From the NCBI GenBank assembly GCA_018304505.1, contig JAGVWA010000018.1, positions 1-53,203 on the forward strand: a stretch of DNA of 53,203 nt. The letters are read 5' to 3'. The DNA comes from Nanobdellati archaeon. GTDB taxonomy: Archaea; B1Sed10-29; JAGVWA01. Made by a program: the position numbers and the translations under genes. A model generated the notes under the pieces. That model was not told the DNA's origin. It did no database searches and saw nothing but the letters and a program-made list of their open reading frames with translations. Shown one piece after another: positions 9,492-22,136 of the stretch. Numbering within the stretch: the stretch's first letter is position 1; each line of letters starts with the position of its first letter.

Positions 9492-10052
9492 ATGAATGGT
9501 TTAAATCAATATGACGGAAAAACCTTGCCTGGGTACACAACACCTGATGGCGAAGAGATAGTCATACGCGTAGTGACAAGGTCAGATGTAAGCAAGCTGT
9601 ATACGTTTTACAACAAAATGATAGGCACTGCCCCGTTTTCAAGGTATTTCAATCAATCGGATTCAGAAGAAAAAAAGAAAAAATGGATAAATGATTACAT
9701 TGAGTCAGACTACCAAACACTTGTGGTTGCAGAAGCCAAAAATGAAATCATTGGCTCAATAGGATTAGAGCTTACAGATGTGCCCGGCGCAAGCCATGTC
9801 GGTACATTACGGGGCATATCGGTAATTGAAGCTTGGAAGGGCAAGGATATATCGCGGCATATTGTTGCCGGCGTACTCAGTCTCGCGAAAATTGTTGGTC
9901 TTGAACTCATAATTTTGTCAATTAGGAGTGGGAACAACCTTGCTATAAGCCTATTTATCTCTGCAGGGTTTACAGAATATGGTAGTCTTCCCCAGGGGAG
10001 GAAAATTGATGGCAAGTACTATGATTCAATAATGCTCTTCAAAAAATTGTGA
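9492..10052 (+). CDS. GNAT family N-acetyltransferase
   Basis: LVVAE..EIIG, HVG..GISV, N..AI.LF...GF.EYG, DGKYYD.I.L motifs; stop overlaps cysS start (TGATG). Confidence 0.85.
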   Translation: MNGLNQYDGKTLPGYTTPDGEEIVIRVVTRSDVSKLYTFYNKMIGTAPFSRYFNQSDSEEKKKKWINDYIESDYQTLVVAEAKNEIIGSIGLELTDVPGASHVGTLRGISVIEAWKGKDISRHIVAGVLSLAKIVGLELIILSIRSGNNLAISLFISAGFTEYGSLPQGRKIDGKYYDSIMLFKKL

Positions 10053-11440
10053 TGCAAATGATCAAACTTTACAACACGCTTACACGACAAAAGGAAGAAT
10101 TCAAGACAATAAACGACAAGGAAGTCACTTTTTATAGCTGCGGGCCTACGGTTTACTGGTATGCGCACATCGGCAATCTAAGGGCGTACGTGTTTGCAGA
10201 CCTTCTAAAGAAAACCCTGGAATACAATGGCTACAAAGTAAGGCATGCCATGAACATAACCGATGTTGGTCACCTCACAAGCGACAGCGACACAGGCGAG
10301 GATAAGATGGAGAAAGCCAAAAAGCGCGAAGGGAAAAACGCATGGGAAATCGCCAAGTTCTATGAGGCCGCATTTTTCATGGACACTGATCGGCTCAACA
10401 TCGCGCGGCCAACAATAACGTGCAGGGCAACAGACCACATCAAGGAACAGATAAGCTTAGTAACGGCACTGGAAGAAAAAGGCTACACGTACCGTATTGA
10501 AGACGGAATCTATTTCGACACGTCCAAGTTATCTGATTACGGAAAGCTGGCAAGGCTCGACATTGAGGGCTTAAAGGCCGGCGCGCGCATCGAACTAGTT
10601 CCGGGTAAGAAGAACCCGACGGACTTCGCCCTATGGAAATTTTCCCCAAAAGACGCACAGCGCGACATGGAATGGGACAGCCCGTGGGGCATCGGGTTTC
10701 CAGGATGGCACATTGAATGCAGCGCGATGAGCATGCACCATCTCGGTAATCATTTTGACATACACACAGGCGGTGTTGATCACATTCCAGTACATCACAC
10801 AAACGAGATCGCGCAGTCAGAAAGCGCAACAGGGGAACAGTTCGTGAATTATTGGCTCCATAACGAGTTTGTTAATTTTAAGGACGTGAAGATGAGCAAG
10901 AGCAGCGGGGACATTTTGACATTGGACGTCCTAATAAACAGTGGCTACTCTCCAATGGATTACCGCTACCTGCTTTTGATGAGCCATTACAGAAGCCAAG
11001 TCACGTTTTCATTAGAAGCAATGGACAATGTAAAGAACACCCTCGAGCGGCTAAAGCGGCATGTTGTAGAACTCAGAAAGTCAGGCACAGGAAAAATTAA
11101 CGAAGCGTACGTGACAAAATTCGTTGAGAAAATGAATGACGATCTCAGCACGCCGGAAGCCCTTTCCGTGATGTGGGAGATGGTCCGCGATGATTCCATT
11201 TCAAGTAGCGATAAATACGCCACGCTCCTCGATTTCGACAAAATCCTATCATTGGGCATTGCGGAAATGCAGGAAGAGAAAGTAGAATTGACTCCCGACG
11301 AGCAGGCACTGGTGGAAAAACGCGATAAGGCACGCGCAGAGAAGGATTGGAAAACCAGCGACGAAATTCGGGATGAATTGAAGAAGCGCGGCCTGCAACT
11401 GCTTGACACGCCAGAGGGTACCAAGGTCGAGCAGGCGTAG
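10052..11440 (+). CDS. cysS: Cysteinyl-tRNA synthetase
   Basis: CGPTVY, HIGN, DFALWK, PGWHIECSAM, HH.NEIAQS, KMSKS. Confidence 0.98.
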   Translation: MQMIKLYNTLTRQKEEFKTINDKEVTFYSCGPTVYWYAHIGNLRAYVFADLLKKTLEYNGYKVRHAMNITDVGHLTSDSDTGEDKMEKAKKREGKNAWEIAKFYEAAFFMDTDRLNIARPTITCRATDHIKEQISLVTALEEKGYTYRIEDGIYFDTSKLSDYGKLARLDIEGLKAGARIELVPGKKNPTDFALWKFSPKDAQRDMEWDSPWGIGFPGWHIECSAMSMHHLGNHFDIHTGGVDHIPVHHTNEIAQSESATGEQFVNYWLHNEFVNFKDVKMSKSSGDILTLDVLINSGYSPMDYRYLLLMSHYRSQVTFSLEAMDNVKNTLERLKRHVVELRKSGTGKINEAYVTKFVEKMNDDLSTPEALSVMWEMVRDDSISSSDKYATLLDFDKILSLGIAEMQEEKVELTPDEQALVEKRDKARAEKDWKTSDEIRDELKKRGLQLLDTPEGTKVEQA

Positions 11441-11490
11441 TGTAAGATGTTGTGGCTTAGAAGCTTAGGACGGTTAGGTGAATAACTTCA

Positions 11491-14397
11491 TTAAACCTTC
11501 GCAGCTACAACAGTAATACTTGCTTCAGCGATCTTTGCCTTTGTCTCTTCGCCGGCTAGCGATTTTTTCTCAACAACATTTATTGAATCAGAGTTTGTGG
11601 TCTTCTGCACTTCATCCAACGCCACCGAGTTCTTGAAATCGCGAGGCGCGATCACTTCGACCTTGATGTGGTCAGGCTCTTGCAAGCCGAGTTGTTTCCT
11701 CAGTTGCTGCACTGTCCGAATTAAATCGCGCGTAGCACCTTCTTTCCTCAACTCGTCATTGAGTTGCTTGTTCAAGTAGACCGTTCCTGACCCGAATTGC
11801 GCTTCTGCATAGTCCCCCTTTGGCGCTTCTTTTGCATGTTTTATTTCGTGAACATTCAGTTGCTCTTTCATTATGTGCTCAACGCCAGCCAGAGGAACTG
11901 GCGAATCGCTAACTATAACAAGGTCTTGCAATGGCTGCCTGACTTTCATTCCAATCTCGTTCCGCAATGCTAGCGCTGATTCCATTATCTGTTTCATCCT
12001 TATGAATTGCTCTTCGAGTTTCTCGTCGTGCATTTCATCATTCGCTTCTGGGAATGTTTCCAAGTGCACTGACTCGTTGCCAGTCAGGTTTGTGTAGATT
12101 TCGTCAGACGCAAACGGCATTATTATTGATGAAATAATCGAAGTTTCCCTGAGGAGCTTGTTCAGCACATCAAATACGGCTTCATTGTTGCGGTTTTCCT
12201 TTACGCGCGAGCGTATGTATTTTACGTAGTCTCTTGACAAGTCATTCACGATGAACTCATGCAAGGCCCTTGCAGGTATAGACGTGTTAAGCTCTTTTTC
12301 GTAGCCCTGCACTGTATCGATTTTCAGCTTCTGGAGCCTTGAGAGTATCCACTTATCCTCGATTTCAAGCTTTTCTGGCAGTGGCTCTTTTGGCGTATAT
12401 CCATTCAGCAGCATGAATTTGACTGCGTAATTGTAGACGTTCCAGTAGGTGTTCATGGCGTTTTGTATTATCCTAATGTTGTCTTCGTCCCACTGCACGT
12501 TATCCCATGGCGTTGATGCCCACAGCAAGAACCACCTCACAATGTCAGGCCCGAATTTCTCAATAACGTCAAATGGCGCAACAACATTGCCCCTGCTCTT
12601 GCTCATTTTTTCGCCCTTCGCGTCCAGCACCAGGCCATTGACAAGGACCGAGTTAAACGGTGCCTCGTTGAAAACAATTGTGGATTCAACCAGCATAAGG
12701 TAGAACCAGCCCCTTGTTTGGTCTAGCCCTTCGGTTATAAAATCAACGGGAAACCATTTCTTGAATTCTTCATTTCTTGGATAACCAAATGGCGCCCAAG
12801 TGTCAGCACCAGCGTCGAACCAAACGTCGGTAACGTCCGTAGTGCGATGTGATTCCTTGCCACAGTTTTCACACTTTATGGTTACCTCATCAATATACGG
12901 CCTGTGCAGGTCCATACCCGCCTTGTAATTTGTGGCCTTTTCTCGTAGCTCTTTCACACTACCAATGACAGTGAGTTTGTCACAATCTGAGCATTCCCAT
13001 ACCGGAATCGGTATGCCCCAATACCTCTGCCTGGAGATGTTCCAGTCCCGGGCATTGGAAAGCCAATCATGGAATCGCTTCTGGCCGGCCCAGTCTGGTA
13101 CCCACCTTATTTTCGAGTTCAGGTCGAGCATTCGCTGCTTGATCGGCTCAATTTTGATGAACCACTGCGGCGTCGTTATGTAAATCAGTTTAGTTCTGCA
13201 CCGCCAACAGTGAGGATAGCTATGCGTAATTTTCTCGGTAAACAAGAGTGAGCCTTGATGGTCCAGCATTTCATTTATCTCGTTGTTGACCTTCAATACA
13301 TTTTTTCCCTTTAGTTCGGGGCCCGCTTCTTCATTATACTTTCCAGCCCGGTCAACGGGAGACAGTATTCTCAGATTGTATTTTAGTCCCGAGTTGTAAT
13401 CGTCTGGCCCATGCCCTGGGGCTGTGTGGACAACGCCTGTGCCGTCTCCAGTTGTGACATATTCTTCTGTAATTGTTTTGTGCACGAATTCCTTGTGCAC
13501 AGGCACCTGGTTTTCTAATGGATGTACATACGTCAGGTTCGTCAAGTCCGCTCCCTGCATCTCCTCAAGAACTTCGTAGACATCATGGCCGAGTTTTTTC
13601 ATCACGCTTTCAACTAAGTCCTTGGCGAGTATGTATACATCATCTTGGACTTTGACCCTGGCATAGGTAAAAGTTGGATGCACTGCCACGGCAACGTTGC
13701 TCGGTATTGTCCACGGGGTTGTTGTCCAAACCAAGAAGTACTCATTGTCCTTGTCGTTTATCTTGAACCTAAGGTATATCGAGGTATCGGTAACGTCCTC
13801 ATATCCCTGGCTGACTTCATGCTGCGCTAAACCGGTTTGGTGGTGCGGGCACCATGGCGTAGAGCCCTGGCCCTTGTACAATAAGTCTTGAGCATGCGCT
13901 TTTTCAAAAAAGAGCCACGTTGAGTCAATGTAATCATTTTCAAATGTTATGTATTTGTTGTCTAAGTTCCACAAGCTCGATGAGCCGAACTTTTCATAGA
14001 ATTCACCCCATAAATCCAGGTACTTTAGCGCGTGTTCCCGGCACGCCTTGTTGAACTTTTCAATGCCGAATTTCTCAATGTCAGAGCTGTCGAGTTTCAG
14101 TTCGTTTTGCACCATTGTCTCGACTGGCAGGCCGTGGGTGTCAAATCCAGGCTGGAGCCACACATTCTCCCCCTTAAGCAATCTGTATTTGCAGATGGTT
14201 TCGCGCAGGGTCCTGGTAAGGGCATGCCCCATGTGCGGCGGCGCGTTGGCATATGGCGGCCCATCGAGGTAGAAAAACTTTTTCCCCATTGCGTTTTTTT
14301 TCTTGCGCTTTTCAAGTAACTTGATGTCGCGCCATCGCTTGATGAACTTTTCCTGCAATTCAGTTGCGTTGTATTGTCCAACAGATTCCATTGTCAT
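11491..14397 (-). CDS. ileS: Isoleucyl-tRNA synthetase
   Basis: DGPPYAN, HMGH, WTTTPWT, DWNISRQRYWG, DQTRGWF, KMSKS. Confidence 0.97.
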   Translation of the reverse strand: MTMESVGQYNATELQEKFIKRWRDIKLLEKRKKKNAMGKKFFYLDGPPYANAPPHMGHALTRTLRETICKYRLLKGENVWLQPGFDTHGLPVETMVQNELKLDSSDIEKFGIEKFNKACREHALKYLDLWGEFYEKFGSSSLWNLDNKYITFENDYIDSTWLFFEKAHAQDLLYKGQGSTPWCPHHQTGLAQHEVSQGYEDVTDTSIYLRFKINDKDNEYFLVWTTTPWTIPSNVAVAVHPTFTYARVKVQDDVYILAKDLVESVMKKLGHDVYEVLEEMQGADLTNLTYVHPLENQVPVHKEFVHKTITEEYVTTGDGTGVVHTAPGHGPDDYNSGLKYNLRILSPVDRAGKYNEEAGPELKGKNVLKVNNEINEMLDHQGSLLFTEKITHSYPHCWRCRTKLIYITTPQWFIKIEPIKQRMLDLNSKIRWVPDWAGQKRFHDWLSNARDWNISRQRYWGIPIPVWECSDCDKLTVIGSVKELREKATNYKAGMDLHRPYIDEVTIKCENCGKESHRTTDVTDVWFDAGADTWAPFGYPRNEEFKKWFPVDFITEGLDQTRGWFYLMLVESTIVFNEAPFNSVLVNGLVLDAKGEKMSKSRGNVVAPFDVIEKFGPDIVRWFLLWASTPWDNVQWDEDNIRIIQNAMNTYWNVYNYAVKFMLLNGYTPKEPLPEKLEIEDKWILSRLQKLKIDTVQGYEKELNTSIPARALHEFIVNDLSRDYVKYIRSRVKENRNNEAVFDVLNKLLRETSIISSIIMPFASDEIYTNLTGNESVHLETFPEANDEMHDEKLEEQFIRMKQIMESALALRNEIGMKVRQPLQDLVIVSDSPVPLAGVEHIMKEQLNVHEIKHAKEAPKGDYAEAQFGSGTVYLNKQLNDELRKEGATRDLIRTVQQLRKQLGLQEPDHIKVEVIAPRDFKNSVALDEVQKTTNSDSINVVEKKSLAGEETKAKIAEASITVVAAKV

Positions 14398-14409
14398 CTT
14401 CCGATATCA

Positions 14410-16722
14410 TTATTTTATGTTGTGCATTATTACTAAGTCATCTTTGAACAGTTCTAACTCTTCAGGTATTTTAATGCCCGTGATTTCTGCTTTTAATGAA
14501 ATGCCTTTTTCTTTTTTTGTTTTCCAAATCATTGAGTTGAAGTCCATCAATGCTTGCGTTTTTTCGCTTAGAATTTGTGGCGTTTTCGCATCGTATTCTG
14601 GAAACGTCTCGTTGTGTATCAATCCGCTGTACAGCTCATTGTAAACCTTGTGCGTAACAAACGGTGTTATCGGCGCTAGTAGTTTAAGGACGCCCTGTAA
14701 AACGTAATGCAGCGTGTACAATGCCGAAGCGTCGTTGTCATAAGCCCTGTTCTTGACCATTTCAACATAGTGACTCGCAAACTGGTTCATGACAAACTCC
14801 CTGACGCGGTTTGCCGGAACGAAGAAATTATAATCTTGGTAGCCTTTTAGCGATTCCTTAACAAGGTTGTTGAACTCCTCCAGGATCCACTTGTCTGTGC
14901 CCGTTAGTTCTTTTGGTTTCTCAGCCTGGGCGAACATGGAAATCAGTTTTGAGAGGTTCCAGAGTTTTGTAATGAACTTTGCCGCTCCGTTAATGCGGTC
15001 TTCAGAAATCCTGAAGAACTCCCCAACATTGGATTCGCTGGCGGCCCATAATCGCCATGCATCGGCCCCGTATTTTTCTAGTATTGGGTTTATTTCCAGG
15101 TAGTTGCCTGCCGACTTCGACATTTTCTTTCCATCTTCTGCCAAGCCGAGGCCGTCGATCCACACCTTTTTGAAAGGCGCTTCATTCAATAGCTGCAAGT
15201 TGCGGAGGATCGTATAGTACAACCAGGTTCTGACGATTTCTGGACCCTGCGGTCGAATCGAAACAGGAAATGCTTTTTTGAACAACTCATCGTCGCGCGA
15301 AAACCCGGAGATGTAAAGGCTGGACAAGGATGAGTCAACCCACGTATCAAATACTTTATCTTCGCCAATAAACTCTGTGCAGCCGCATTCTGTGCATTTC
15401 GTAAACGGTGCCTTGTCCTTCCACGGCCTATAGTACGGGCCTGGCTCTGGCAGCATAGGGTGATGATTGTCCTTGCAGTACCACAACGGAATCTCAGTGT
15501 GATAGTACCTGCGTCGTGATATCGGCCAGTCGATTGTTATCGAGTTTATCCAGTCAGTAAGTATCTGCTTGTTTTTCGCTGGCAGGAACGTCATCGCGTC
15601 TGCCTTTTTCCTAACGTCATCTAGAAATTCGAGTTGTTTGATGTACCATTCCTTCATGCTGACGAATTCTAGAGGGTCTTTTGAGCGCTCGCACGTCGGA
15701 GTCCTGTGCGTCATGTCTTCTTGTTTCACGAGCAGGTCTTCATGCTTAAGCTTTTCAATAATTGTCTTGCGCGCCTCTTTCACAGTAAGACCTTTCAGAA
15801 ATCCAGTGGCTTGTGTCATTAGACCGTCTTCGCCAATGCCTTGCACTGGCTCCAAGCTCAATTCTCTGAAGATCTGCACATCGCTTGTGTCGCCGTAGCT
15901 GCATATCATTACGATTCCAGTGCCGAATTCAGGCTTGGCGTAAGTGTGTGCATAAATTGGAACTTCAGTTCCATACAATGGAACGATTGCATGTTTTCCG
16001 TGTAAGTATTTGTAGCGCTCGTCGTCTGGATGGACTAGGATTGCTTTACACGCCACCAATAGTTCTGGCCGTGTAGTACCAATTTCGATTTCGTCATTGG
16101 TTTCCGTTACCTTGAATTTTATAGTATTCATTTTGCTTGGCAATTCTTCGTAAACAATTTCGGCTTCCGCTATCGTTGTCCTGCAGCCGGGGCAGTAGAA
16201 GTTTGGCCGTAGGTGTTCGACAATTTGCCCCCTGTGCCACATTTCAATGAACATGGCTTGAGAGAAAGCCCTGTAGTCGTCACTGTCTGTGGCGTACGCG
16301 TTTTTGAAGTCAAAACTCATTCCGGAGCGCTTGAAAATATCAATGATACTTGTACCGATTTTGTTCATCTCGATAACGCATTCTTTGACGAAGAATTCCC
16401 TGTCCATGTCATGGATGCTCTTCTTGTGCTTTTTTTCAACTAAGAGTTCTAGGTTTATGCCGTTCCTGTCGAGGCCAATTGGAAAGAGAACATTGTAGCC
16501 TTGCATCCTTGCGGTGCGTCCGATCATGTCGATCTTGCAGTAGTGCGCCAGCTGTCCAGGATGGGGATCTCCAGAAGGATACGGCGGGGGATTGTCTATT
16601 GAAAACGTTTCCTTGTCCGAGTTCCTGTCGAACGAGAAATCGTAGTCAATATCGAATTCTGTTATGAGTTCTTTTTCGTTTTCGCTCGTGAATCTCTTTT
16701 CAGTCAGTTTCGCTTCAGCCAA
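14410..16722 (-). CDS. valS: Valyl-tRNA synthetase (TTG start)
   Basis: DNPPPY, TTRPEL, FGTG.VM.CSYGD, DWPISRR, IVRTW, KMSKS; GGTGA SD. Confidence 0.95.
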   Translation of the reverse strand: MAEAKLTEKRFTSENEKELITEFDIDYDFSFDRNSDKETFSIDNPPPYPSGDPHPGQLAHYCKIDMIGRTARMQGYNVLFPIGLDRNGINLELLVEKKHKKSIHDMDREFFVKECVIEMNKIGTSIIDIFKRSGMSFDFKNAYATDSDDYRAFSQAMFIEMWHRGQIVEHLRPNFYCPGCRTTIAEAEIVYEELPSKMNTIKFKVTETNDEIEIGTTRPELLVACKAILVHPDDERYKYLHGKHAIVPLYGTEVPIYAHTYAKPEFGTGIVMICSYGDTSDVQIFRELSLEPVQGIGEDGLMTQATGFLKGLTVKEARKTIIEKLKHEDLLVKQEDMTHRTPTCERSKDPLEFVSMKEWYIKQLEFLDDVRKKADAMTFLPAKNKQILTDWINSITIDWPISRRRYYHTEIPLWYCKDNHHPMLPEPGPYYRPWKDKAPFTKCTECGCTEFIGEDKVFDTWVDSSLSSLYISGFSRDDELFKKAFPVSIRPQGPEIVRTWLYYTILRNLQLLNEAPFKKVWIDGLGLAEDGKKMSKSAGNYLEINPILEKYGADAWRLWAASESNVGEFFRISEDRINGAAKFITKLWNLSKLISMFAQAEKPKELTGTDKWILEEFNNLVKESLKGYQDYNFFVPANRVREFVMNQFASHYVEMVKNRAYDNDASALYTLHYVLQGVLKLLAPITPFVTHKVYNELYSGLIHNETFPEYDAKTPQILSEKTQALMDFNSMIWKTKKEKGISLKAEITGIKIPEELELFKDDLVIMHNIK

Positions 16723-16727
16723 TCAAT

Positions 16728-16794
16728 TCACCATAACTCGTTTTAATAGCAACTCCAAAATGTTTGTTAGAGTAGCTATTTAGAAATAACTACT
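16728..16794 (-). promoter_or_regulatory. Putative attenuator with mutually exclusive hairpins upstream of valS
   Basis: 1:2 AGTAGTTATT/AATAGCTACT; 2:3 AATAGCTACTCTAA/TTGGAGTTGCTATT; weak 3:4 pairing over SD GGTGA. Confidence 0.6.
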
Positions 16795-16856
16795 ACGGGT
16801 TGAGGTAAAGAAATTATTTCTATTATAACTTTTGTAAGGTAGTACATGAGTCTCAT
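16776..16856 (-). CDS. Val/Ile-rich leader peptide MRLMYYLTKVIIEIISLPQPVVVISK
   Basis: 4 Val and 5 Ile within 15 codons; ends 53 nt before valS-ileS; TATA at 16886-16894. Confidence 0.7.
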   Translation of the reverse strand: MRLMYYLTKVIIEIISLPQPVVVISK

Positions 16857-17107
16857 TTTGCCCAGATAAATTAGCAGGGATTTGGTATATATTAATTGTT
16901 GCTCTCTTCCTGCATACTCACGGGTTTTGTTTCAAAAATGTCTTAGTTTGCTTTAGGAATTCCTTTAGCGTGAATTCTGTTAGTTTCGATCAAGGATTCG
17001 AAGTAAGGCTCTCTCTAGTGATATGTTAAGCAGCGGAAATTCATTATAGTCAAAACGTTAATCGAATCCATCAGCTAGGCATAAATTTAAGATGGTTTTT
17101 AAAACTA

Positions 17108-17168
17108 TGCTTTAGTAATGCACAAAAGCTTGCATTAGTAATGCACAAAAGCTTGCATTAGTAATGCA
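17108..17168. repeat. 23-bp tandem repeat (about 2.6 copies) containing palindrome TGCATTAGTAATGCA
   Basis: Read directly: TGCWTTAGTAATGCACAAAAGCT x2 plus a partial copy. Confidence 0.9.
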
Positions 17169-17206
17169 TGAAAATATGTATTGCCCCTGCACAATTTAAA
17201 ATAAGG

Positions 17207-18688
17207 TTAGTATGCCTTGGCAACGTACATGACGTGCTTGGCTTCTTTGCCACAACCAATACATTTCGCGCCATTGGCAACTCTTTCTTCTTTGCCAAAC
17301 TCGATAAACTTAGTGCCTCGAACTTCGGCATGGTATGCTTCGCCGATCTTGTCCGCGCATTTCAATCCATCCTTCTCGCGCGAGCAGAAATTCACCTTGA
17401 CGAAACCGCCTTTCTCTAGCTGCTTTCCGAGCTCTTCAAAATCCGTGGCCTCGTGAGTGTTTCCTTCAAACCATTTCATGGTTTGATCCTTTAGTGTTTT
17501 CAGAATCTCAGGAACTGCTTTTTCAATGTACGTTTCCAAGTCTTTTTGCTTGATTGTTTCCTTTTTTCCATTGTCCCTGCGCGCAATCGTTAATTCATGC
17601 TTTTCAAGTTCCTTGCTGCCGATTTCAATCCTCAGTGGAGTGCCCCGCGCTTCCCAGTAGTAGTACTTAGAACCTGGGCGCTTGTCACTGTCGTCGACCT
17701 CTGTTCGGTAATCAAGTTCCCTGAGTTGCGTTTGCAAGTCATAACACTCCTGAAGTAGGGTGGTGCTATCTGCGTCGGCCTTTAAAATTGGAACGATAAC
17801 GACTTGTGTAGGCGCAAGTCCAAATGGCAGCCTTAGGCCCTTGTTGTCTCCATGCACTGAAATCAGGGCTGCATAGATTCTGGAAATGGCTGGCCCGAAC
17901 GTGGTCTGGAACGCATATTTCTCCTTCTCGTTCTCATCAAGAAATTTTATGTTGTATGACTTCGCGAAGTTCTGCCCGTAGAAATGTGTGCTCGGTAACT
18001 GTAAAACTTTCTTGTCTGGCATCAACGCGTCAGCAGCGAAACTGTGTTGCCCGCCTGCGAACTTATCCCAGTCAGGCCGGTGAAAGAAAATAATCGGCAA
18101 CCCCCATTTATCACGCAATACATCGTAAGTCATTTCCATGTCTTCCTTAACCTGGTTCCAGGCTTCTTCTGCGGTGGCGAAAACGTCATGCGCTTCTATC
18201 CAGTGAAATTCCCTGTCACGTAAGAAAGGTCGCGTGTGCTTTGTTTCATACCTCCAAACTTGGCAAGACTGATAAATCTTCAACGGCAGGTCCCTGTGGC
18301 TGCGTATCCATTGCGAGTACGTGTCGTACATCGCGGTTTCAGATGTTGGCCGCATTGCCAGCTTTTCTTCAAACTCGTCATCCGTGCCACCTTTTGTCAC
18401 CCAAAACACGTTTGGGGCAAAGTTCTCGATGTGCTCTGCTTCCTTGGCAAAGTAGTGCTCTGGAATCAATGAAGGAAAACGCGCTGGCTTGTGGCCATGA
18501 GTTTCCAGCGAGGATTCCATGTCTGCATACATTCGCTTTTCTGTAATTGCGGCATTTGGCATGTGGACTATGAAGCCCTTCAAGCGGTACCTTTGGTCTG
18601 CCAGCTCGGCGTAACTGACGATTTCAGTAAACCATTCTGAGAAATTCTTTTCCTTATCGATGTTAAATCCCTTGTCTTCCTCTGCCAT
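17207..18688 (-). CDS. proS: Prolyl-tRNA synthetase (archaeal/eukaryotic type)
   Basis: RPTSET, RYETKHTRPFLRDREFHW.EAH, C-terminal Zn site and AKAY end. Confidence 0.97.
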   Translation of the reverse strand: MAEEDKGFNIDKEKNFSEWFTEIVSYAELADQRYRLKGFIVHMPNAAITEKRMYADMESSLETHGHKPARFPSLIPEHYFAKEAEHIENFAPNVFWVTKGGTDDEFEEKLAMRPTSETAMYDTYSQWIRSHRDLPLKIYQSCQVWRYETKHTRPFLRDREFHWIEAHDVFATAEEAWNQVKEDMEMTYDVLRDKWGLPIIFFHRPDWDKFAGGQHSFAADALMPDKKVLQLPSTHFYGQNFAKSYNIKFLDENEKEKYAFQTTFGPAISRIYAALISVHGDNKGLRLPFGLAPTQVVIVPILKADADSTTLLQECYDLQTQLRELDYRTEVDDSDKRPGSKYYYWEARGTPLRIEIGSKELEKHELTIARRDNGKKETIKQKDLETYIEKAVPEILKTLKDQTMKWFEGNTHEATDFEELGKQLEKGGFVKVNFCSREKDGLKCADKIGEAYHAEVRGTKFIEFGKEERVANGAKCIGCGKEAKHVMYVAKAY

Positions 18689-18774: not shown

Positions 18775-19353
18775 ATGAAGAAAGCAGTGATGCTGGTACT
18801 TTTAATTCTGTTAATTGCAGGCTGTACCAGCAATTCAAATAGCCAAACTTATTCTACAAGTTATTCTACAGACATACTCAGTTCACAAAATGAAAGCATT
18901 CAAGTAAACACAAGCTCAAATGCAGGAGAGGATAAAATGACAAATGAGAAGACAGCACAAAATGGCGACACGGTCAAGGTGCATTACACTGGTCGGCTCA
19001 AAGATGGCACTGTGTTCGATAGCAGTGAAGGCCGAGACCCGTTACAAGTTACCCTAGGCAGCAGCATGGTGATTCCAGGATTCAACGACGGAATTCTTAA
19101 CATGAAAATTGGGGAGAAAAAGACTGTTGAGATTCCAGTAGACCAGGCGTATGGCCCTGTTGACCCAATGAGGTTTATGAATGTTGAGCCGGCAGAGCTC
19201 CCGGGTGCAGAAGTTGGCAGGATGATCCAGGCAAACAACGGCATGATCGGAGTCATTACAGAAGTGTACCCTGACAGGATTGTGGTAGACTTCAATCATC
19301 AGCTTGCTGGCAAAGACCTGATTTTCGAAATCGAACTGGTTGAAATCGCATGA
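18775..19353 (+). CDS. FKBP-type (SlyD-like) PPIase with lipoprotein signal
   Basis: GDTVKVHYTG, FDSS, IPGF, AYG, DFNH.LAGK.L.F; N-terminal LLIAG-C lipobox. Confidence 0.9.
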   Translation: MKKAVMLVLLILLIAGCTSNSNSQTYSTSYSTDILSSQNESIQVNTSSNAGEDKMTNEKTAQNGDTVKVHYTGRLKDGTVFDSSEGRDPLQVTLGSSMVIPGFNDGILNMKIGEKKTVEIPVDQAYGPVDPMRFMNVEPAELPGAEVGRMIQANNGMIGVITEVYPDRIVVDFNHQLAGKDLIFEIELVEIA

Positions 19354-19466
19354 CGCAATCGGGACTTATAAATAACTGAATTGTGCTGTACGTTTTCTCT
19401 TTGCGTACATTAAAAAATCAGAATTGAGATCTCTGAGTTGATATATAGTTGAGAGAGGATGCTTAA

Positions 19467-19865
19467 CTATTTGACACGCTGCACGAATCGCTGTCCCATG
19501 ACAGCCTGTACCTCGACCTCTGACCCCGCCTGTATCTTGCTTCTGAATTCGGCAGGTATCTCGGATTCGTAGGTCTCGAAGCTTTCCATGTCCATCAGTT
19601 GCCATTTTCCATTGCCAACATCAGCCACTGCTGATGCGGTTTCTTTCTTTAGAACAGGCACCTTGACCCTGTGCCCTGTCGGCGACAGTAATGTCTTCTT
19701 TTTGCCCGTAAAAAGCGAGACGCCCTCAATACGCGCTTTTGCTTCCCCATGCTTTCCTGGTTTTGAAATAGAAATGCTTGTAACCCTGCACGGATCTTCT
19801 TCAATGATAATGTAGCGTCCTTCCCTTGCTTCCTTTGCTTCGATTACTGTATACTCTTCTGGCAT
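19467..19865 (-). CDS. eif5a: Translation factor aIF5A
   Basis: SKPGKHGEAKAR hypusine loop, QLMDME.FE. Confidence 0.96.
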   Translation of the reverse strand: MPEEYTVIEAKEAREGRYIIIEEDPCRVTSISISKPGKHGEAKARIEGVSLFTGKKKTLLSPTGHRVKVPVLKKETASAVADVGNGKWQLMDMESFETYESEIPAEFRSKIQAGSEVEVQAVMGQRFVQRVK

Positions 19866-19877
19866 TTTGTTCTCCCC

Positions 19878-20876
19878 CTATTCGTTTTCATCGTATTTCT
19901 TTATTCCTAGATAGTATGATGAAAAGAGCCCGCCAAAGGTCAGCAACCAATATGAGATGAGCCTATCGACCATTGTAGCGGTTCCTGCTAATAATAATGA
20001 AATGCCGGACGAAGTATAAATAAGTATCATTGCGCCCTCAACCAAGCCCAACCCGCCGGGAAGCAATGGGATCAAGCCAGCAAGCGGTGCAAGAACCAAC
20101 ATTATTAGGATGAGCTTTGGGTTAACTGCTGCGCCCAGGGCGAGGAAAACAAAGTACACGCGCAATACGTCTGAAACCCACATTATGCTTGAGTAGAAAA
20201 TGCCCCAGCCCCAGAGGCGTTTCTTTTTCAGGAAGGCCTTAACAGTTTCAGAGTACGCCGACACGTCATCTTTGAGTTTTTTTCTCAGGGGCTTGAGCAT
20301 ATCGAATTTCTTAACAAAGAGAGAAACAATACCCGAGCTGATGTCATGCGTTATAGAAAGGTATGTGATAAAAAACATTATCAGTAATGTCAGAACTAGT
20401 GACACTGTCAATGCGATGCTGACCCAGTCCGGCAAAAAGAAGCTTGACAATACAAAGAACAGCGTTATGATTGTAACAAGAAAGAACGAGAACTGATCAA
20501 ATATCCGGTCAGTGATGATAGTTGCTAGGCTTTGAGCAGTGTCTGCTGTGCTGTGTTTCCTAAGAAAAAATGTCCGCACTGGCTCTCCGCCAAGGCGGGA
20601 AGACGGGGTTATGTTGCTAAATGCTATGCCTGAGAGCGTTGAGTTAAACAATTTCCACCGGTCGGTTTTAATTCCGTCGTACTCAACGATCTTCGCCCAG
20701 CGCATGTTTGTGGCCCATACTGCTATGACCTGGAAAAACAGCGCATACCCCAAATAGGCCGGCTGCGCATTCCTCAGGACACTCATGATGTTTTCCACGC
20801 CAAAGCCTGCGCCAAATGCGAATGAAATGACGATGCCGGCAACCAGCGTGTAGACTATGAGCCTTTCCGGCTTCAT
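19878..20876 (-). CDS. UPF0104/LPG synthase TM (flippase-like) membrane protein
   Basis: RW, NITP..RLGGEPVR, PGGLG.VE, DRLISYW motifs. Confidence 0.88.
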   Translation of the reverse strand: MKPERLIVYTLVAGIVISFAFGAGFGVENIMSVLRNAQPAYLGYALFFQVIAVWATNMRWAKIVEYDGIKTDRWKLFNSTLSGIAFSNITPSSRLGGEPVRTFFLRKHSTADTAQSLATIITDRIFDQFSFFLVTIITLFFVLSSFFLPDWVSIALTVSLVLTLLIMFFITYLSITHDISSGIVSLFVKKFDMLKPLRKKLKDDVSAYSETVKAFLKKKRLWGWGIFYSSIMWVSDVLRVYFVFLALGAAVNPKLILIMLVLAPLAGLIPLLPGGLGLVEGAMILIYTSSGISLLLAGTATMVDRLISYWLLTFGGLFSSYYLGIKKYDENE

Positions 20877-20925
20877 GAGCTATTAGTGGAAGTAGTATTA
20901 TATAAACTCTATCAGTAATTCAGGC

Positions 20926-21666
20926 ATGATCGACACGCACTGCCATCTTGACGTTAAGCAGTTCAACAAGGATCGCGATGACGTTATTGAACGGGCAAGG
21001 CAGCAGCTACGTTATGTAATAAACCCCGCGACTGATTTTGGGTCGAACATTAGGGTCCAGCAAATCCAAAAGCAGCATAGGGGATTCGTGTTCGCGTGCA
21101 TGGCCCTTGACCCAGTGAATTTCGTGAAACAGCAGGACCGACAAAATGAATTTATCGAGCTGGCGAGGCAGCACAGCAACGACATCGTGGCGATTGGAGA
21201 AGTCGGTTTAGATTATTATTGGCTGCCCGACAAAAAGGGGGTACAGCAAAGCAACTTTATAGCTATGATAGAGCTCGCGAACGAGCTCAAGAAAACGCTT
21301 GTGATACATTCACGCAACGCAATGGAAGACGCACTGGAAATATTGGAGCGGCACGCAAATACCAGGGTTGTGATGCACTGCTTCTCAGGCAACAAGACGC
21401 AGATGAAGAGGTGCTGGGACAGCAATTACATAACCAGTTTTGCAACAAGCATTTGCCGCATGGGCAAAGTTTTAAGTAAAAGCCTTGATTTAGACAAGAT
21501 TGTAGTGGAAACCGATTCCCCGTATCTGAATCCTGTAAGCACCGAGCGCAACGAGCCAGTAAACGTAAAGTACGCGATTCAAAAGATCGCGGAAAAAACA
21601 GGAACAACGTTTGAGGAAATCGAAGCCATTACTGATAAAAACGCTATGAGGGCCTTTAATTTGTAG
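20926..21666 (+). CDS. tatD: TatD family DNase
   Basis: IDTHCHL, AIGEVGLDY, IHSR, HCFSG, ETDSPY. Confidence 0.93.
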   Translation: MIDTHCHLDVKQFNKDRDDVIERARQQLRYVINPATDFGSNIRVQQIQKQHRGFVFACMALDPVNFVKQQDRQNEFIELARQHSNDIVAIGEVGLDYYWLPDKKGVQQSNFIAMIELANELKKTLVIHSRNAMEDALEILERHANTRVVMHCFSGNKTQMKRCWDSNYITSFATSICRMGKVLSKSLDLDKIVVETDSPYLNPVSTERNEPVNVKYAIQKIAEKTGTTFEEIEAITDKNAMRAFNL

Positions 21667-21674
21667 GGATAAAA

Positions 21675-22136
21675 ATGCTGTTTAGAACATTTGGAAATTT
21701 CTTAAGAAGAAACACGCGAAAACGAATCGGGGTGCTGGTTGACGGCCCCAACATGCTACGCAAGGAATTCGACTTTGACTTTAATAAGATAAAGCAAGAG
21801 CTGCACCAATTCGGGGACATAAGGATAGCCCGGGTCTTCCTCAATCAGTTCGCGCCAGGAAAACTGATAGAGGCAGTGACAAACCAGGGCTTTCAGCCGA
21901 TCATGATCACTACCGGGGACGTGGATGCGCCAATGGCTGCAGAAGCCATGGAAATAGTTTACAATAACAACATAGACATGCTTTGCTTAATGACCCGGGA
22001 CAGTGACTTTCAACCAGTGCTGCAAAAGGCAAAGGCCCATGGTAAGGAAACAATCGTGATTGGGGGAAAACCATTTTCAGTAGCGTTAAAAAACACGGCG
22101 GACCACATAATAATGCTTAAGGATCTAAGCAAGTGA
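21675..22136 (+). CDS. NYN domain protein (TIGR00288-like)
   Basis: VDGPNMLR, GDVD, TRDSDF.P, FS.ALKN.AD. Confidence 0.88.
   Translation: MLFRTFGNFLRRNTRKRIGVLVDGPNMLRKEFDFDFNKIKQELHQFGDIRIARVFLNQFAPGKLIEAVTNQGFQPIMITTGDVDAPMAAEAMEIVYNNNIDMLCLMTRDSDFQPVLQKAKAHGKETIVIGGKPFSVALKNTADHIIMLKDLSK

What the first reader, a model, noticed from the sequence alone, without database searches (positions are those of the whole stretch)
16728..16894. Val/Ile leader peptide with 1:2 / 2:3 / 3:4 hairpins upstream of valS-ileS
Minus-strand 16856-16776 encodes MRLMYYLTKVIIEIISLPQPVVVISK (GTT ATA ATA GAA ATA ATT ... GTA GTA GTT ATT). Segment 1 (16794-16784, over the terminal VVI codons) pairs with segment 2 (10 bp). 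Segment 2 (16781-16767) can instead pair with segment 3 (16758-16745; 13 bp, one mismatch). Segment 3 can weakly pair (G-U rich) with ATGGTGA, the valS SD. Stalling at Val/Ile codons would favour 2:3 and free the SD, which suggests translational attenuation sensing both substrates of the two-gene operon, like bacterial ilv leaders. Three Ile codons are AUA, which archaea read with agmatidine-modified tRNA-Ile2.
Basis: partly seen in the sequence, partly recalled or inferred. Interest (0 to 1): 0.9.

Follow-up and report, generated by a model that had tools for sequence, protein, structure and literature searches.

The report
Val/Ile leader peptide before archaeal valS-ileS
A tiny upstream gene packed with valine and isoleucine codons, ending at the foot of an RNA hairpin, sits in front of the valyl- and isoleucyl-tRNA synthetase genes of a small-genome archaeon and many of its relatives; it probably lets slowed ribosomes tune those two genes, a bacterial-style control I could not find described for archaea.

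Summary
A 26-codon ORF (16856-16776, minus strand) with 9 Val/Ile codons lies 53 nt upstream of a valS-ileS operon in a 0.92-Mb archaeal genome. Its Val/Ile content exceeds all 2000 composition-preserving shuffles and ranks first of 592 upstream regions in the genome.

Hairpins 1:2 and 2:3 are real and better than chance. The proposed 3:4 pairing with the valS Shine-Dalgarno (SD) sequence is not.

The main new evidence comes from relatives. In 10 of 16 same-order genomes (six of eight families), plus one metagenome contig, a short ORF sits upstream of valS. Nine of the ten are clearly Val/Ile-rich; one is Val/Ile-poor but homologous. In every case the ORF ends 44-65 nt before valS, a hairpin starts at its stop codon, and in 11 of 12 a TATA-like box lies 30-43 nt upstream of it. 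Peptide sequences differ between families; only the Val/Ile richness, which is frame-specific and poor in Leu, is shared.

This is most likely a ribosome-mediated, Val/Ile-tRNA-sensing leader. How it changes expression is unresolved. There is no terminator, and four pairing or footprint tests gave no consistent SD masking. There are no RNA data. My literature searches found no archaeal precedent.

The parts
16886..16895 (-). TATA-like box TTAATATATA, 30-39 nt upstream of the leader ORF's ATG. It is the likely promoter of the leader-valS-ileS transcript.
   Evidence: Sequence. A TATA-like motif starts 30-43 nt upstream of the leader ATG in 11 of 12 leaders. The same motif class peaks 45-26 nt before start codons in this genome. 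It occurs at that distance for 72 of 365 genes against 173 of 1825 random intergenic positions. No TSS data exist.
16776..16856 (-). Leader ORF: 26 codons plus TAG, encoding MRLMYYLTKVIIEIISLPQPVVVISK, with 9 Val/Ile codons.
16812..16829 (-). First Val/Ile run, codons 10-15: GTT ATA ATA GAA ATA ATT.
16785..16796 (-). Second Val/Ile run, codons 21-24: GTA GTA GTT ATT. It overlaps segment 1.
16771..16794 (-). Alternative hairpin 1:2. The Val/Ile codons pair with the 5' arm of the main hairpin. The stop codon lies inside its 3' arm, and the loop is 16784-16781, just upstream of it.
   Evidence: -8.7 kcal/mol. 0 of 300 shuffles as good. The equivalent pairing is significant in L004 (0 of 300) and L002 (7 of 300).
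16745..16780 (-). Main hairpin 2:3, starting 2 nt before the TAG stop. It has 13 pairs with one bulge per arm and the loop CAAACAUU.
   Evidence: -13.5 kcal/mol, z -3.0, 0 of 200 shuffles. A hairpin of -8.4 to -20.5 kcal/mol starts -9 to +5 nt from the stop in 12 of 12 leaders. Background is 17% of 150 sampled intergenic sORFs.
16723..16744 (-). A-rich spacer of 22 nt carrying the valS Shine-Dalgarno GGTGA (16732-16728).
14410..16722 (-). valS (770 aa, TTG start), first structural gene.
   Evidence: NF009687 valine--tRNA ligase, 873.5 bits.
11491..14397 (-). ileS (968 aa), 12 nt after valS. The valS-ileS adjacency is conserved in the order.

Best explanation
This is a ribosome-mediated leader (attenuator) of the valS-ileS operon.

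Proposed mechanism:
- Transcription starts a few nucleotides upstream of the 26-codon leader ORF, from the TATA-like box at 16895-16886.
- Ribosomes translate the leader. Their speed over its nine Val/Ile codons reports the supply of Val-tRNA and Ile-tRNA, which are the products of the two enzymes encoded downstream.
- The last Val/Ile codons (16796-16785) form segment 1, and the stop codon sits at the base of a strong hairpin.
- A ribosome slowed on these codons blocks the 1:2 hairpin, leaves 2:3 (16780-16745) formed, and occupies the 3' end of the leader for longer.
- A fast ribosome runs to the stop, melts the hairpin briefly and leaves.
- I infer that slowing raises valS-ileS expression. 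This would be homeostatic feedback in an organism that probably cannot make these amino acids.
- I infer that the output acts after transcription initiation, on translation initiation or mRNA fate, rather than by intrinsic termination.

Shown here: the ORF, its codon bias, the hairpins, and their conservation and placement.
Inferred only: translation of the leader, the direction of the response, and the output step.
For: In the window:
- The Val/Ile bias exceeds 2000 of 2000 shuffles and ranks first of 592 upstream regions.
- Hairpins 2:3 (z -3.0) and 1:2 (0 of 300 shuffles) are mutually exclusive.

In relatives:
- 10 of 16 same-order genomes with a valS match carry a short ORF ending 44-65 nt before valS. 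They come from families f2, f3, f4, f5 and f6; the window's own family f1 makes six. One of 4 metagenome loci (L036) has it too.
- Shuffles out of 2000 reaching the observed score: L002 6, L004 5, L006 1, L008 8, L009 4, L013 7, L020 8, L036 17, L015 31, L012 65, L010 314.
- The peptides differ between families (MNANAVRVIIVAA, MTRVILIRVVA, MQITKCIIIV, MAFISIKQITVIVTIS, MPSITTKT..IIIPIS). Only the Val/Ile richness is shared.
- Val/Ile makes up 31% of residues in frame, against 3% and 5% in the other frames. Across seven lineages, Ile is 24.8%, Val 17.1% and Leu 4.8%. The proteome has Val+Ile 14.1% and Leu 9.1%.
- 12 of 12 leaders have a hairpin starting -9 to +5 nt from the stop, against 17% background. 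In family f4 the arms differ in sequence, and 4 of 10 aligned pairs show compensatory changes.
- 11 of 12 have a TATA-like box 30-43 nt upstream of the leader ATG, conserved in the f4 alignment.
- In L002 and L004 the 1:2 and 2:3 ensembles are nearly iso-energetic: -38.7 vs -37.7 and -31.8 vs -32.1 kcal/mol.
- In G002 a class IV aminotransferase gene (Pfam Aminotran_4, 1.2e-57) sits between valS and ileS, behind such a leader. As recalled, that family includes the branched-chain aminotransferases.

Specificity:
- I saw no cognate-rich uORF upstream of nine other aaRS genes of this genome.
Against: - There are no RNA data. The TSS, leader translation and any response are untested.
- No output mechanism is supported statistically:
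  - 3' arm against the ribosome-binding site: summed p 0.91.
  - uORF 3' part against the SD region: p 0.37.
  - 5' arm against the ribosome-binding site: p 0.29.
  - Ribosome-footprint modelling gives no consistent SD opening, and none in the window.
- The 1:2 alternative is absent from the other nine leaders (L006, L008, L009, L036 and the five f4 leaders).
- No hairpin-plus-T-run terminator is present.
- The leader is missing in 6 of 16 order relatives. Three of them have only 8-60 nt upstream of valS, so it is dispensable.
- G009's homologous leader has only 3 Val/Ile codons of 24 (314 of 2000 shuffles reach it).
- A TATTAAAA at 16748-16741 could be an internal promoter that would exclude the leader from the transcript.
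- I chose the scoring window and distance range.
- My gene calls for the genome-wide rank are crude.
- The five f4 genomes, and probably the two f2 genomes, are not independent.
Confidence: 0.6

Rival explanations
1. Classical transcription attenuation. Hairpin 1:2 followed by the U-rich stretch in the 2:3 loop acts as a premature terminator. A ribosome stalled on the Val/Ile codons prevents 1:2 and lets RNA polymerase read into valS.
For: - In L002 the 1:2 hairpin is followed directly by CUUUACUCUUUCUUGUUAU.
- In L004 it is followed by UAGUCUUUG, and in the window by UAACAAACAUUUUGG.
- 1:2 is significant in these three leaders.
- As recalled, archaeal RNA polymerase terminates at oligo-U.
Against: - No terminator-like site is found in 16600-17300.
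- The window's U run is only 4 nt long and lies about 10 nt after the hairpin.
- The other nine leaders (L006, L008, L009, L036 and the five f4 leaders) lack 1:2.
- In f4 the U-rich tract lies before the hairpin, not after it.
- A ribosome that is not stalled would also disrupt 1:2.
Confidence: 0.12
2. The conserved element is the RNA hairpin, acting as a protein operator, stability element or processing element of the valS-ileS mRNA. The short ORF in front of it is not translated or is incidental.
For: - The hairpin is the most uniformly conserved feature: 12 of 12 leaders, with compensatory changes in f4.
- In f4 the first 24 nt of the ORF are invariant even at third codon positions. This points to a constraint at the nucleotide level.
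- Translation of the ORF has not been shown.
Against: - Val/Ile enrichment is frame-specific (31% against 3% and 5%) and recurs with unrelated peptide sequences.
- ORFs with start and stop codons are kept in all lineages.
- Several leaders have their own SD-like motif: L002, L009, L010, L012, L015, L036.
- Most Val/Ile codons lie outside the hairpin.
- By eye, the hairpin loops share no motif and no anticodon-like triplet.
Confidence: 0.1
3. Positive coupling. Ribosomes finishing the leader melt the stop-codon hairpin and thereby permit 30S loading on valS. Stalling at Val/Ile codons would then lower valS-ileS expression, giving growth-rate or stringent-like control.
For: - The stop codon lies at the hairpin base in 12 of 12 leaders.
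- The hairpin ends 8-33 nt before the valS start. As recalled, that is within the reach of a 30S footprint.
Against: - Cognate-codon specificity (Val and Ile but not Leu) fits feedback on these two enzymes better than general growth control.
- The distance from hairpin to start codon is variable (8-33 nt).
Confidence: 0.08
4. The ORF encodes a functional hydrophobic micro-peptide co-expressed with valS-ileS.
For: The ORF is conserved and the peptides are hydrophobic.
Against: - Lengths range from 10 to 28 aa and sequences are unrelated between families.
- 10-13 residues is too short for a membrane helix.
- Only composition is conserved.
Confidence: 0.04
5. Chance ORF in an AT-rich spacer.
For: The spacer has 33% G+C, which favours Ile codons.
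Against: - 0 of 2000 shuffles reach the observed score.
- It ranks first of 592 upstream regions.
- It recurs in six families with the same placement.
Confidence: 0.02

Closest known systems
Bacterial leader-peptide attenuators of amino-acid and aaRS operons: E. coli pheST (pheM), ilvGMEDA/ilvBN, trp, his. These are recalled. A comparative study of such attenuators for aminoacyl-tRNA operons (Lopatovskaya et al. 2010) was seen only as an entry in the reference list of PMC4833913.
   Same: - A short promoter-proximal ORF enriched in the cognate codons of the regulated genes.
- A stop codon next to a hairpin.
- Mutually exclusive hairpins overlapping the ORF's end, in the window and family f2.
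- The target includes aaRS genes.
   Different: - The host is an archaeon.
- There is no hairpin-plus-U-run terminator.
- There are three segments, not four, and no 3:4.
- The alternative pairing is not conserved across the order.
- No Rfam leader family matches.
Mycobacterial polycysteine leaderless short ORFs that act as cysteine-responsive translational attenuators (bioRxiv 10.1101/834739; abstract, outline and two passages read).
   Same: - The first ORF of the transcript lies right at the promoter.
- It is enriched in codons of the amino acid relevant to the operon.
- Ribosome stalling is proposed to remodel leader RNA, with no terminator needed.
   Different: - There, stalled ribosomes block a duplex that sequesters the downstream ribosome-binding site.
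- Here, such sequestration was tested and is not above chance.
- The host is archaeal and the targets are aaRS genes.
ermC/cat-type translational attenuation (recalled).
   Same: A stalled ribosome in a short leader ORF switches between alternative hairpins.
   Different: - In that system the stall is induced by a drug and the nascent peptide.
- The SD of the target lies inside the switched hairpin. Here the SD lies 12 nt beyond the hairpin.
T-box riboswitches of aaRS genes, including ileS in Actinobacteria (PMC1262725, search listing and abstract only).
   Same: The same regulatory task: sensing tRNA charging to set aaRS expression.
   Different: T-box elements bind tRNA directly and need no ORF. 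No Rfam T-box match was found in the window.

Membership tests
Ribosome-mediated (leader-peptide) transcription attenuator, trp/his/ilv/pheST type | A short ORF within the 5' leader of the regulated transcript. | tested here: inconclusive
   The ORF is present. TATA-like boxes lie 30-43 nt upstream of the leader ATG in 11 of 12 leaders. There is no TSS or RNA evidence.
Ribosome-mediated (leader-peptide) transcription attenuator, trp/his/ilv/pheST type | Enrichment of codons cognate to the regulated genes. | tested here: met
   9 of 26 codons are Val/Ile. 0 of 2000 shuffles reach this. It ranks first of 592 upstream regions. The bias recurs in relatives, is frame-specific and is poor in Leu.
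Ribosome-mediated (leader-peptide) transcription attenuator, trp/his/ilv/pheST type | Mutually exclusive hairpins, one overlapping the regulatory codons. | tested here: inconclusive
   Met in the window, L002 and L004. Not found in the other nine leaders.
Ribosome-mediated (leader-peptide) transcription attenuator, trp/his/ilv/pheST type | An intrinsic terminator (hairpin plus U run) between the leader ORF and the structural gene. | tested here: not met
   0 terminator-like sites in 16600-17300. No consistent U tract follows the hairpins.
Ribosome-mediated (leader-peptide) transcription attenuator, trp/his/ilv/pheST type | Expression responds to limitation of the cognate charged tRNA. | not testable with these tools
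   No RNA holder is listed and the organism is uncultured.
Translational attenuator (ermC/cat; mycobacterial Cys short ORFs) | The downstream gene's ribosome-binding site is sequestered in a structure that a ribosome stalled in the leader relieves. | tested here: not met
   The window's ribosome-binding site is about equally open in all modelled states: free RNA 0.56, with footprints 0.34-0.59. Complementarity to the ribosome-binding site is at chance: p 0.37, 0.91 and 0.29. Some relatives show a partial effect (L002, L004, L012, L015).
T-box riboswitch / any Rfam family | A match to the covariance model. | tested here: not met
   There are no hits at gathering score in the window other than two tRNAs. 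At E up to 10 in 16600-17300 there are only four chance-level hits.

The most novel reading that the evidence does not exclude
This would be the first amino-acid-specific, ribosome-sensed leader-peptide control described in Archaea. The module consists of a promoter-proximal Val/Ile ORF and a stop-codon hairpin. It is conserved across six families of a small-genome (DPANN-like) order. It feeds the charging state of tRNA-Val and tRNA-Ile back onto the valS-ileS operon. It would do so without a bacterial-type terminator and without evident SD masking, which implies an archaeal output step not yet described. Candidates are stalled-ribosome or hairpin control of mRNA decay, of factor-dependent termination, or of 30S loading.
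Probability: 0.5. Interest if true: 0.88.

Novelty: new variant of a known kind. Interest (0 to 1): 0.8.

Why it matters
Leader-peptide attenuation is a textbook bacterial mechanism that depends on ribosomes reading nascent mRNA. Whether archaea use it has been an open point. Six searches of the paper library returned no archaeal case.

The signature here is clear and comparatively supported, and it lies in front of two aaRS genes. That makes the question directly testable with reporters and toeprinting.

It also suggests how genome-reduced, probably auxotrophic archaea keep synthetase levels matched to tRNA charging without known regulators.

Because no terminator or SD-masking helix is evident, the output step may reveal how archaeal mRNA fate is coupled to a stalled leading ribosome.

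Tried and rejected
Expression data. No RNA holder is listed for the 5-kb stretch, so the TSS and expression could not be examined.

DNA contigs. Contigs of four runs were laid on 16300-17400. They show no variant inside 16728-16894, so there is no population-level covariation to use.

Closer relatives. Scans of metagenome contigs (4 loci, best 56% ValRS identity) and genome contigs (3 loci: Bathyarchaeia and a bacterium) gave none. The order holds 18 species genomes and the class 31.

Known RNA families. None match.

SD-masking models:
- Ribosome footprints stepped along each leader.
- uORF 3' part against the ribosome-binding site (p 0.37).
- 5' arm against the ribosome-binding site (p 0.29).
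- Forced 1:2 against forced 2:3 states.
- None gives a consistent result.
- A stem between the window's SD and valS codons 12-14 is not better than shuffles (52 of 200).

Bacterial-type terminator. None is found.

Similar leaders elsewhere:
- None seen upstream of the candidate LeuRS, ThrRS, PheRS, two Tyr/Trp-type, two class II (Ser/His/Gly-type), ProRS or CysRS genes of this genome. The MetRS candidate on C21 was not printed by my script, and other aaRS genes were not searched (judged by eye).
- None upstream of the separate ileS of G001. In G003 the contig ends before the ileS start.
- None upstream of valS in 13 of 13 genomes of the other orders of the class.
- None in 5 more distant archaea (L016, L017, L019, L021, L029).
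- None in L033-L035 or L042. L043 (C-terminal piece only) and L044 (bacterial) were not examined.

Other checks. Supplementary files of papers were not consulted.

Full report
**Context**

The window is contig C1 of a 917,116-base, 21-contig genome, 92.8% complete. Its SSU rRNA is best matched by the archaeal Rfam model (1135 bits). G+C is 47%. By size it looks DPANN-like. No tool named the taxon. DNA runs that hold the stretch are labelled groundwater and soil metagenomes.

On the minus strand lie proS (18688-17207), a 484-nt spacer of 33% G+C, valS (16722-14410) and ileS (14397-11491). cysS converges on the plus strand. The 16S 3' end reads ...GATCACCTCCT. SD-like motifs peak 15-6 nt before start codons genome-wide. 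valS has GGTGA at 16732-16728, 5 nt before its TTG start.

**The observation**

Nine of its 26 codons are Val or Ile, in two runs: 16829-16812 and 16796-16785.

- None of 2000 dinucleotide-preserving shuffles of the upstream 250 nt gave an equally Val/Ile-dense short ORF in the same position range.
- I made crude gene calls for the genome: 998 genes, of which 592 have at least 60 nt upstream. Against these, the valS leader ranks first. Only 4 of 592 reach its window score of 5 Val/Ile in 7 residues.
- Hairpin 2:3 (16780-16745) folds at -13.5 kcal/mol, z -3.0, with 0 of 200 shuffles as good.
- Hairpin 1:2 (16794-16771) folds at -8.7 kcal/mol, with 0 of 300 shuffles as good.
- The 3:4 pairing with the SD is -2.9 kcal/mol, never appears in predicted folds, and is at chance.

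**Relatives**

The order contains 18 species genomes and the class 31, and all were searched. The nearest ValRS is only 61% identical, so the spacers cannot be aligned across families.

Even so, 10 of the 16 order relatives with a valS match have a short ORF upstream of valS that ends 44-65 nt before it. Examples:
- G013: MNANAVRVIIVAA
- G008: MTRVILIRVVA
- G002: VNRVMPYQLVICGIVVIQ
- G005: MQITKCIIIV
- G004: MAFISIKQITVIVTIS
- Five family-f4 genomes share MPSITTKT...(I/V)IIP(I/V)(F/S).

A metagenome contig (L036) has MSCQVRVVESIIVDFS.

Shuffles out of 2000 that reach each observed score: 6, 5, 1, 8 and 4 for the first five; 7, 8, 31, 65 and 314 for f4 (G017, G016, G003, G012, G009); and 17 for L036. 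G009's copy is clearly homologous but poor in Val/Ile.

I fixed the scoring details. The f4 genomes are one lineage, and the two f2 genomes probably are too. The independent count is therefore about seven lineages, including the window.

Pooled over the 12 leaders, Val/Ile make up 67 of 213 residues in frame, against 7 of 201 and 10 of 201 in the other frames. Taking one leader per lineage, Ile is 24.8%, Val 17.1% and Leu only 4.8%. The proteome has Val+Ile 14.1% and Leu 9.1%. The bias is therefore at the codon level and matches valS-ileS specifically.

The leader is absent in six order relatives:
- G001, G015 and G007, where only 45, 60 and 8 nt separate valS from the upstream gene.
- G011.
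- G006, where only 139 nt are available before the contig end.
- G010, which has a different ValRS type.

It is also absent in all 13 genomes of the other orders of the class and in 5 more distant archaea.

**Shared anatomy**

- In 12 of 12 leaders a single hairpin of -8.4 to -20.5 kcal/mol begins between -9 and +5 nt of the first base of the leader's stop codon.
- Among 150 randomly sampled intergenic short ORFs of this genome that end 40-70 nt before a gene (of 162 eligible), 17% have a hairpin of -8.4 or better there and 10% have -10 or better.
- In f4 the hairpin arms differ in sequence between genomes. Even a structure-blind alignment shows compensatory changes at 4 of 10 pairs.
- In 11 of 12 leaders a TATA-like motif starts 30-43 nt upstream of the leader ATG. 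The exception is L013 at -64, which has an insertion. The motif is invariant in the f4 alignment.
- In this genome such motifs peak 45-26 nt before start codons. They occur at that distance for 72 of 365 genes, against 173 of 1825 random intergenic positions.
- The leader ORF is thus placed as the first cistron of the transcript.
- Several leaders also have SD-like motifs of their own.
- In G002 a class IV aminotransferase gene lies between valS and ileS, behind the leader. As recalled, that family contains the branched-chain aminotransferases.

**Mechanism**

The sensor half is well supported by comparison: a translated ORF whose Val/Ile codons report charged-tRNA supply.

The output half is not resolved.
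- There is no bacterial-type terminator and no consistent U tract after the hairpins.
- Masking of the valS ribosome-binding site was tested in four ways and is not above chance. A partial opening on stalling is predicted for L002, L004, L012 and L015, but not for the window.
- The 1:2/2:3 switch is strong in the window and in the two f2 leaders, where the two states are nearly iso-energetic. It is absent in the other nine leaders.

I therefore commit to a ribosome-mediated leader that acts after transcription initiation, with stalling raising expression by analogy to pheST and the mycobacterial Cys short ORFs. I mark translation of the leader, the direction of the response and the output step as inferred. 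Transcription attenuation, positive coupling and a hairpin-only element remain as rivals.

**Comparison and novelty**

Functionally this works like bacterial leader-peptide attenuators. It resembles most closely the terminator-less, promoter-proximal short-ORF attenuators of mycobacteria (10.1101/834739; abstract and passages read).

It fails two defining tests:
- the terminator test of the classical family, and
- the test for sequestration of the ribosome-binding site in the translational family.

So I file it as a new variant and not as a member of either family.

Six searches of the paper library found no archaeal leader-peptide attenuator and no regulatory leader of archaeal aaRS genes. 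The library lacks most subscription journals, so this is not proof of absence.

Noticed in passing
window 17108-17168: A tandem repeat with a 23-nt unit, 2.7 copies and 97% matches lies just downstream of proS. On the minus strand each unit holds the 15-nt palindrome TGCATTAcTAATGCA followed by AGCTTTTG. Other contigs in the metagenomes pile up here, with summed depth up to 55. It could be an operator or terminator array, or a repeated element.
   Followed up: partly
window 16986/16987 and 16942-16986: Contigs of three other runs (X2, X3, X4) match the window without other differences. They carry 26 extra bases behind 16986, so the window may lack them through a variant or an assembly collapse. 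Separately, 16942-16986 is matched at about 83% by short contigs that diverge on both sides. This suggests a small conserved or mobile element in the proS-valS spacer. No Rfam match was found.
   Followed up: partly
G000 contig C15, about 18912-22046 (outside the window): The 16S rRNA gene is interrupted. The Rfam model is matched at 18912-20352. A second piece (model positions 1349-1438) lies at 21162-21250. The canonical 3' end GATCACCTCCT lies at about 22034-22044. This implies large insertions, possibly introns, near the 3' domain.
   Followed up: partly
G000 contig C20:23039-23147 (outside the window): ARAGORN, with intron search on, predicts a tRNA-Ile with anticodon UAU and an intron. 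AUA may therefore be read without agmatidine-modified tRNA-Ile2. Only 33 tRNAs were found, and no tRNA-Val or tRNA-Ile(GAU) was found.
   Followed up: no
window 10049-18688: Four aaRS genes are clustered: proS, valS and ileS on the minus strand and cysS converging on the plus strand. In three order relatives (G001, G007, G015) a 450-482-aa gene lies 8-60 nt upstream of valS on the same strand. It is of proS-like size but was not identified.
   Followed up: partly
L039 (G002:C39:5100-6400), ORF 269-1231 minus: A class IV aminotransferase gene (Pfam Aminotran_4, E 1.2e-57) is inserted between valS and ileS in one relative that has the Val/Ile leader.
   Followed up: yes
alignment A1 (L010, L012, L013, L015, L020): In family f4 the first eight codons of the leader (ATGCCGTCGATAACAACCAAGACA) are almost invariant at the nucleotide level, third positions included, while the middle of the ORF varies by 0-40 nt. 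A similar ACAAC..AGAGG motif recurs just upstream of valS. This constraint is unexplained.
   Followed up: no
window 16756-16723: A second mini-ORF (TTG GAG TTG ... ATG GTG AAT TGA) starts in the 3' arm of the hairpin and stops directly against the TTG start of valS. This could allow termination-reinitiation coupling. It has no evident SD of its own and I did not see an equivalent in the relatives' leader sequences.
   Followed up: no
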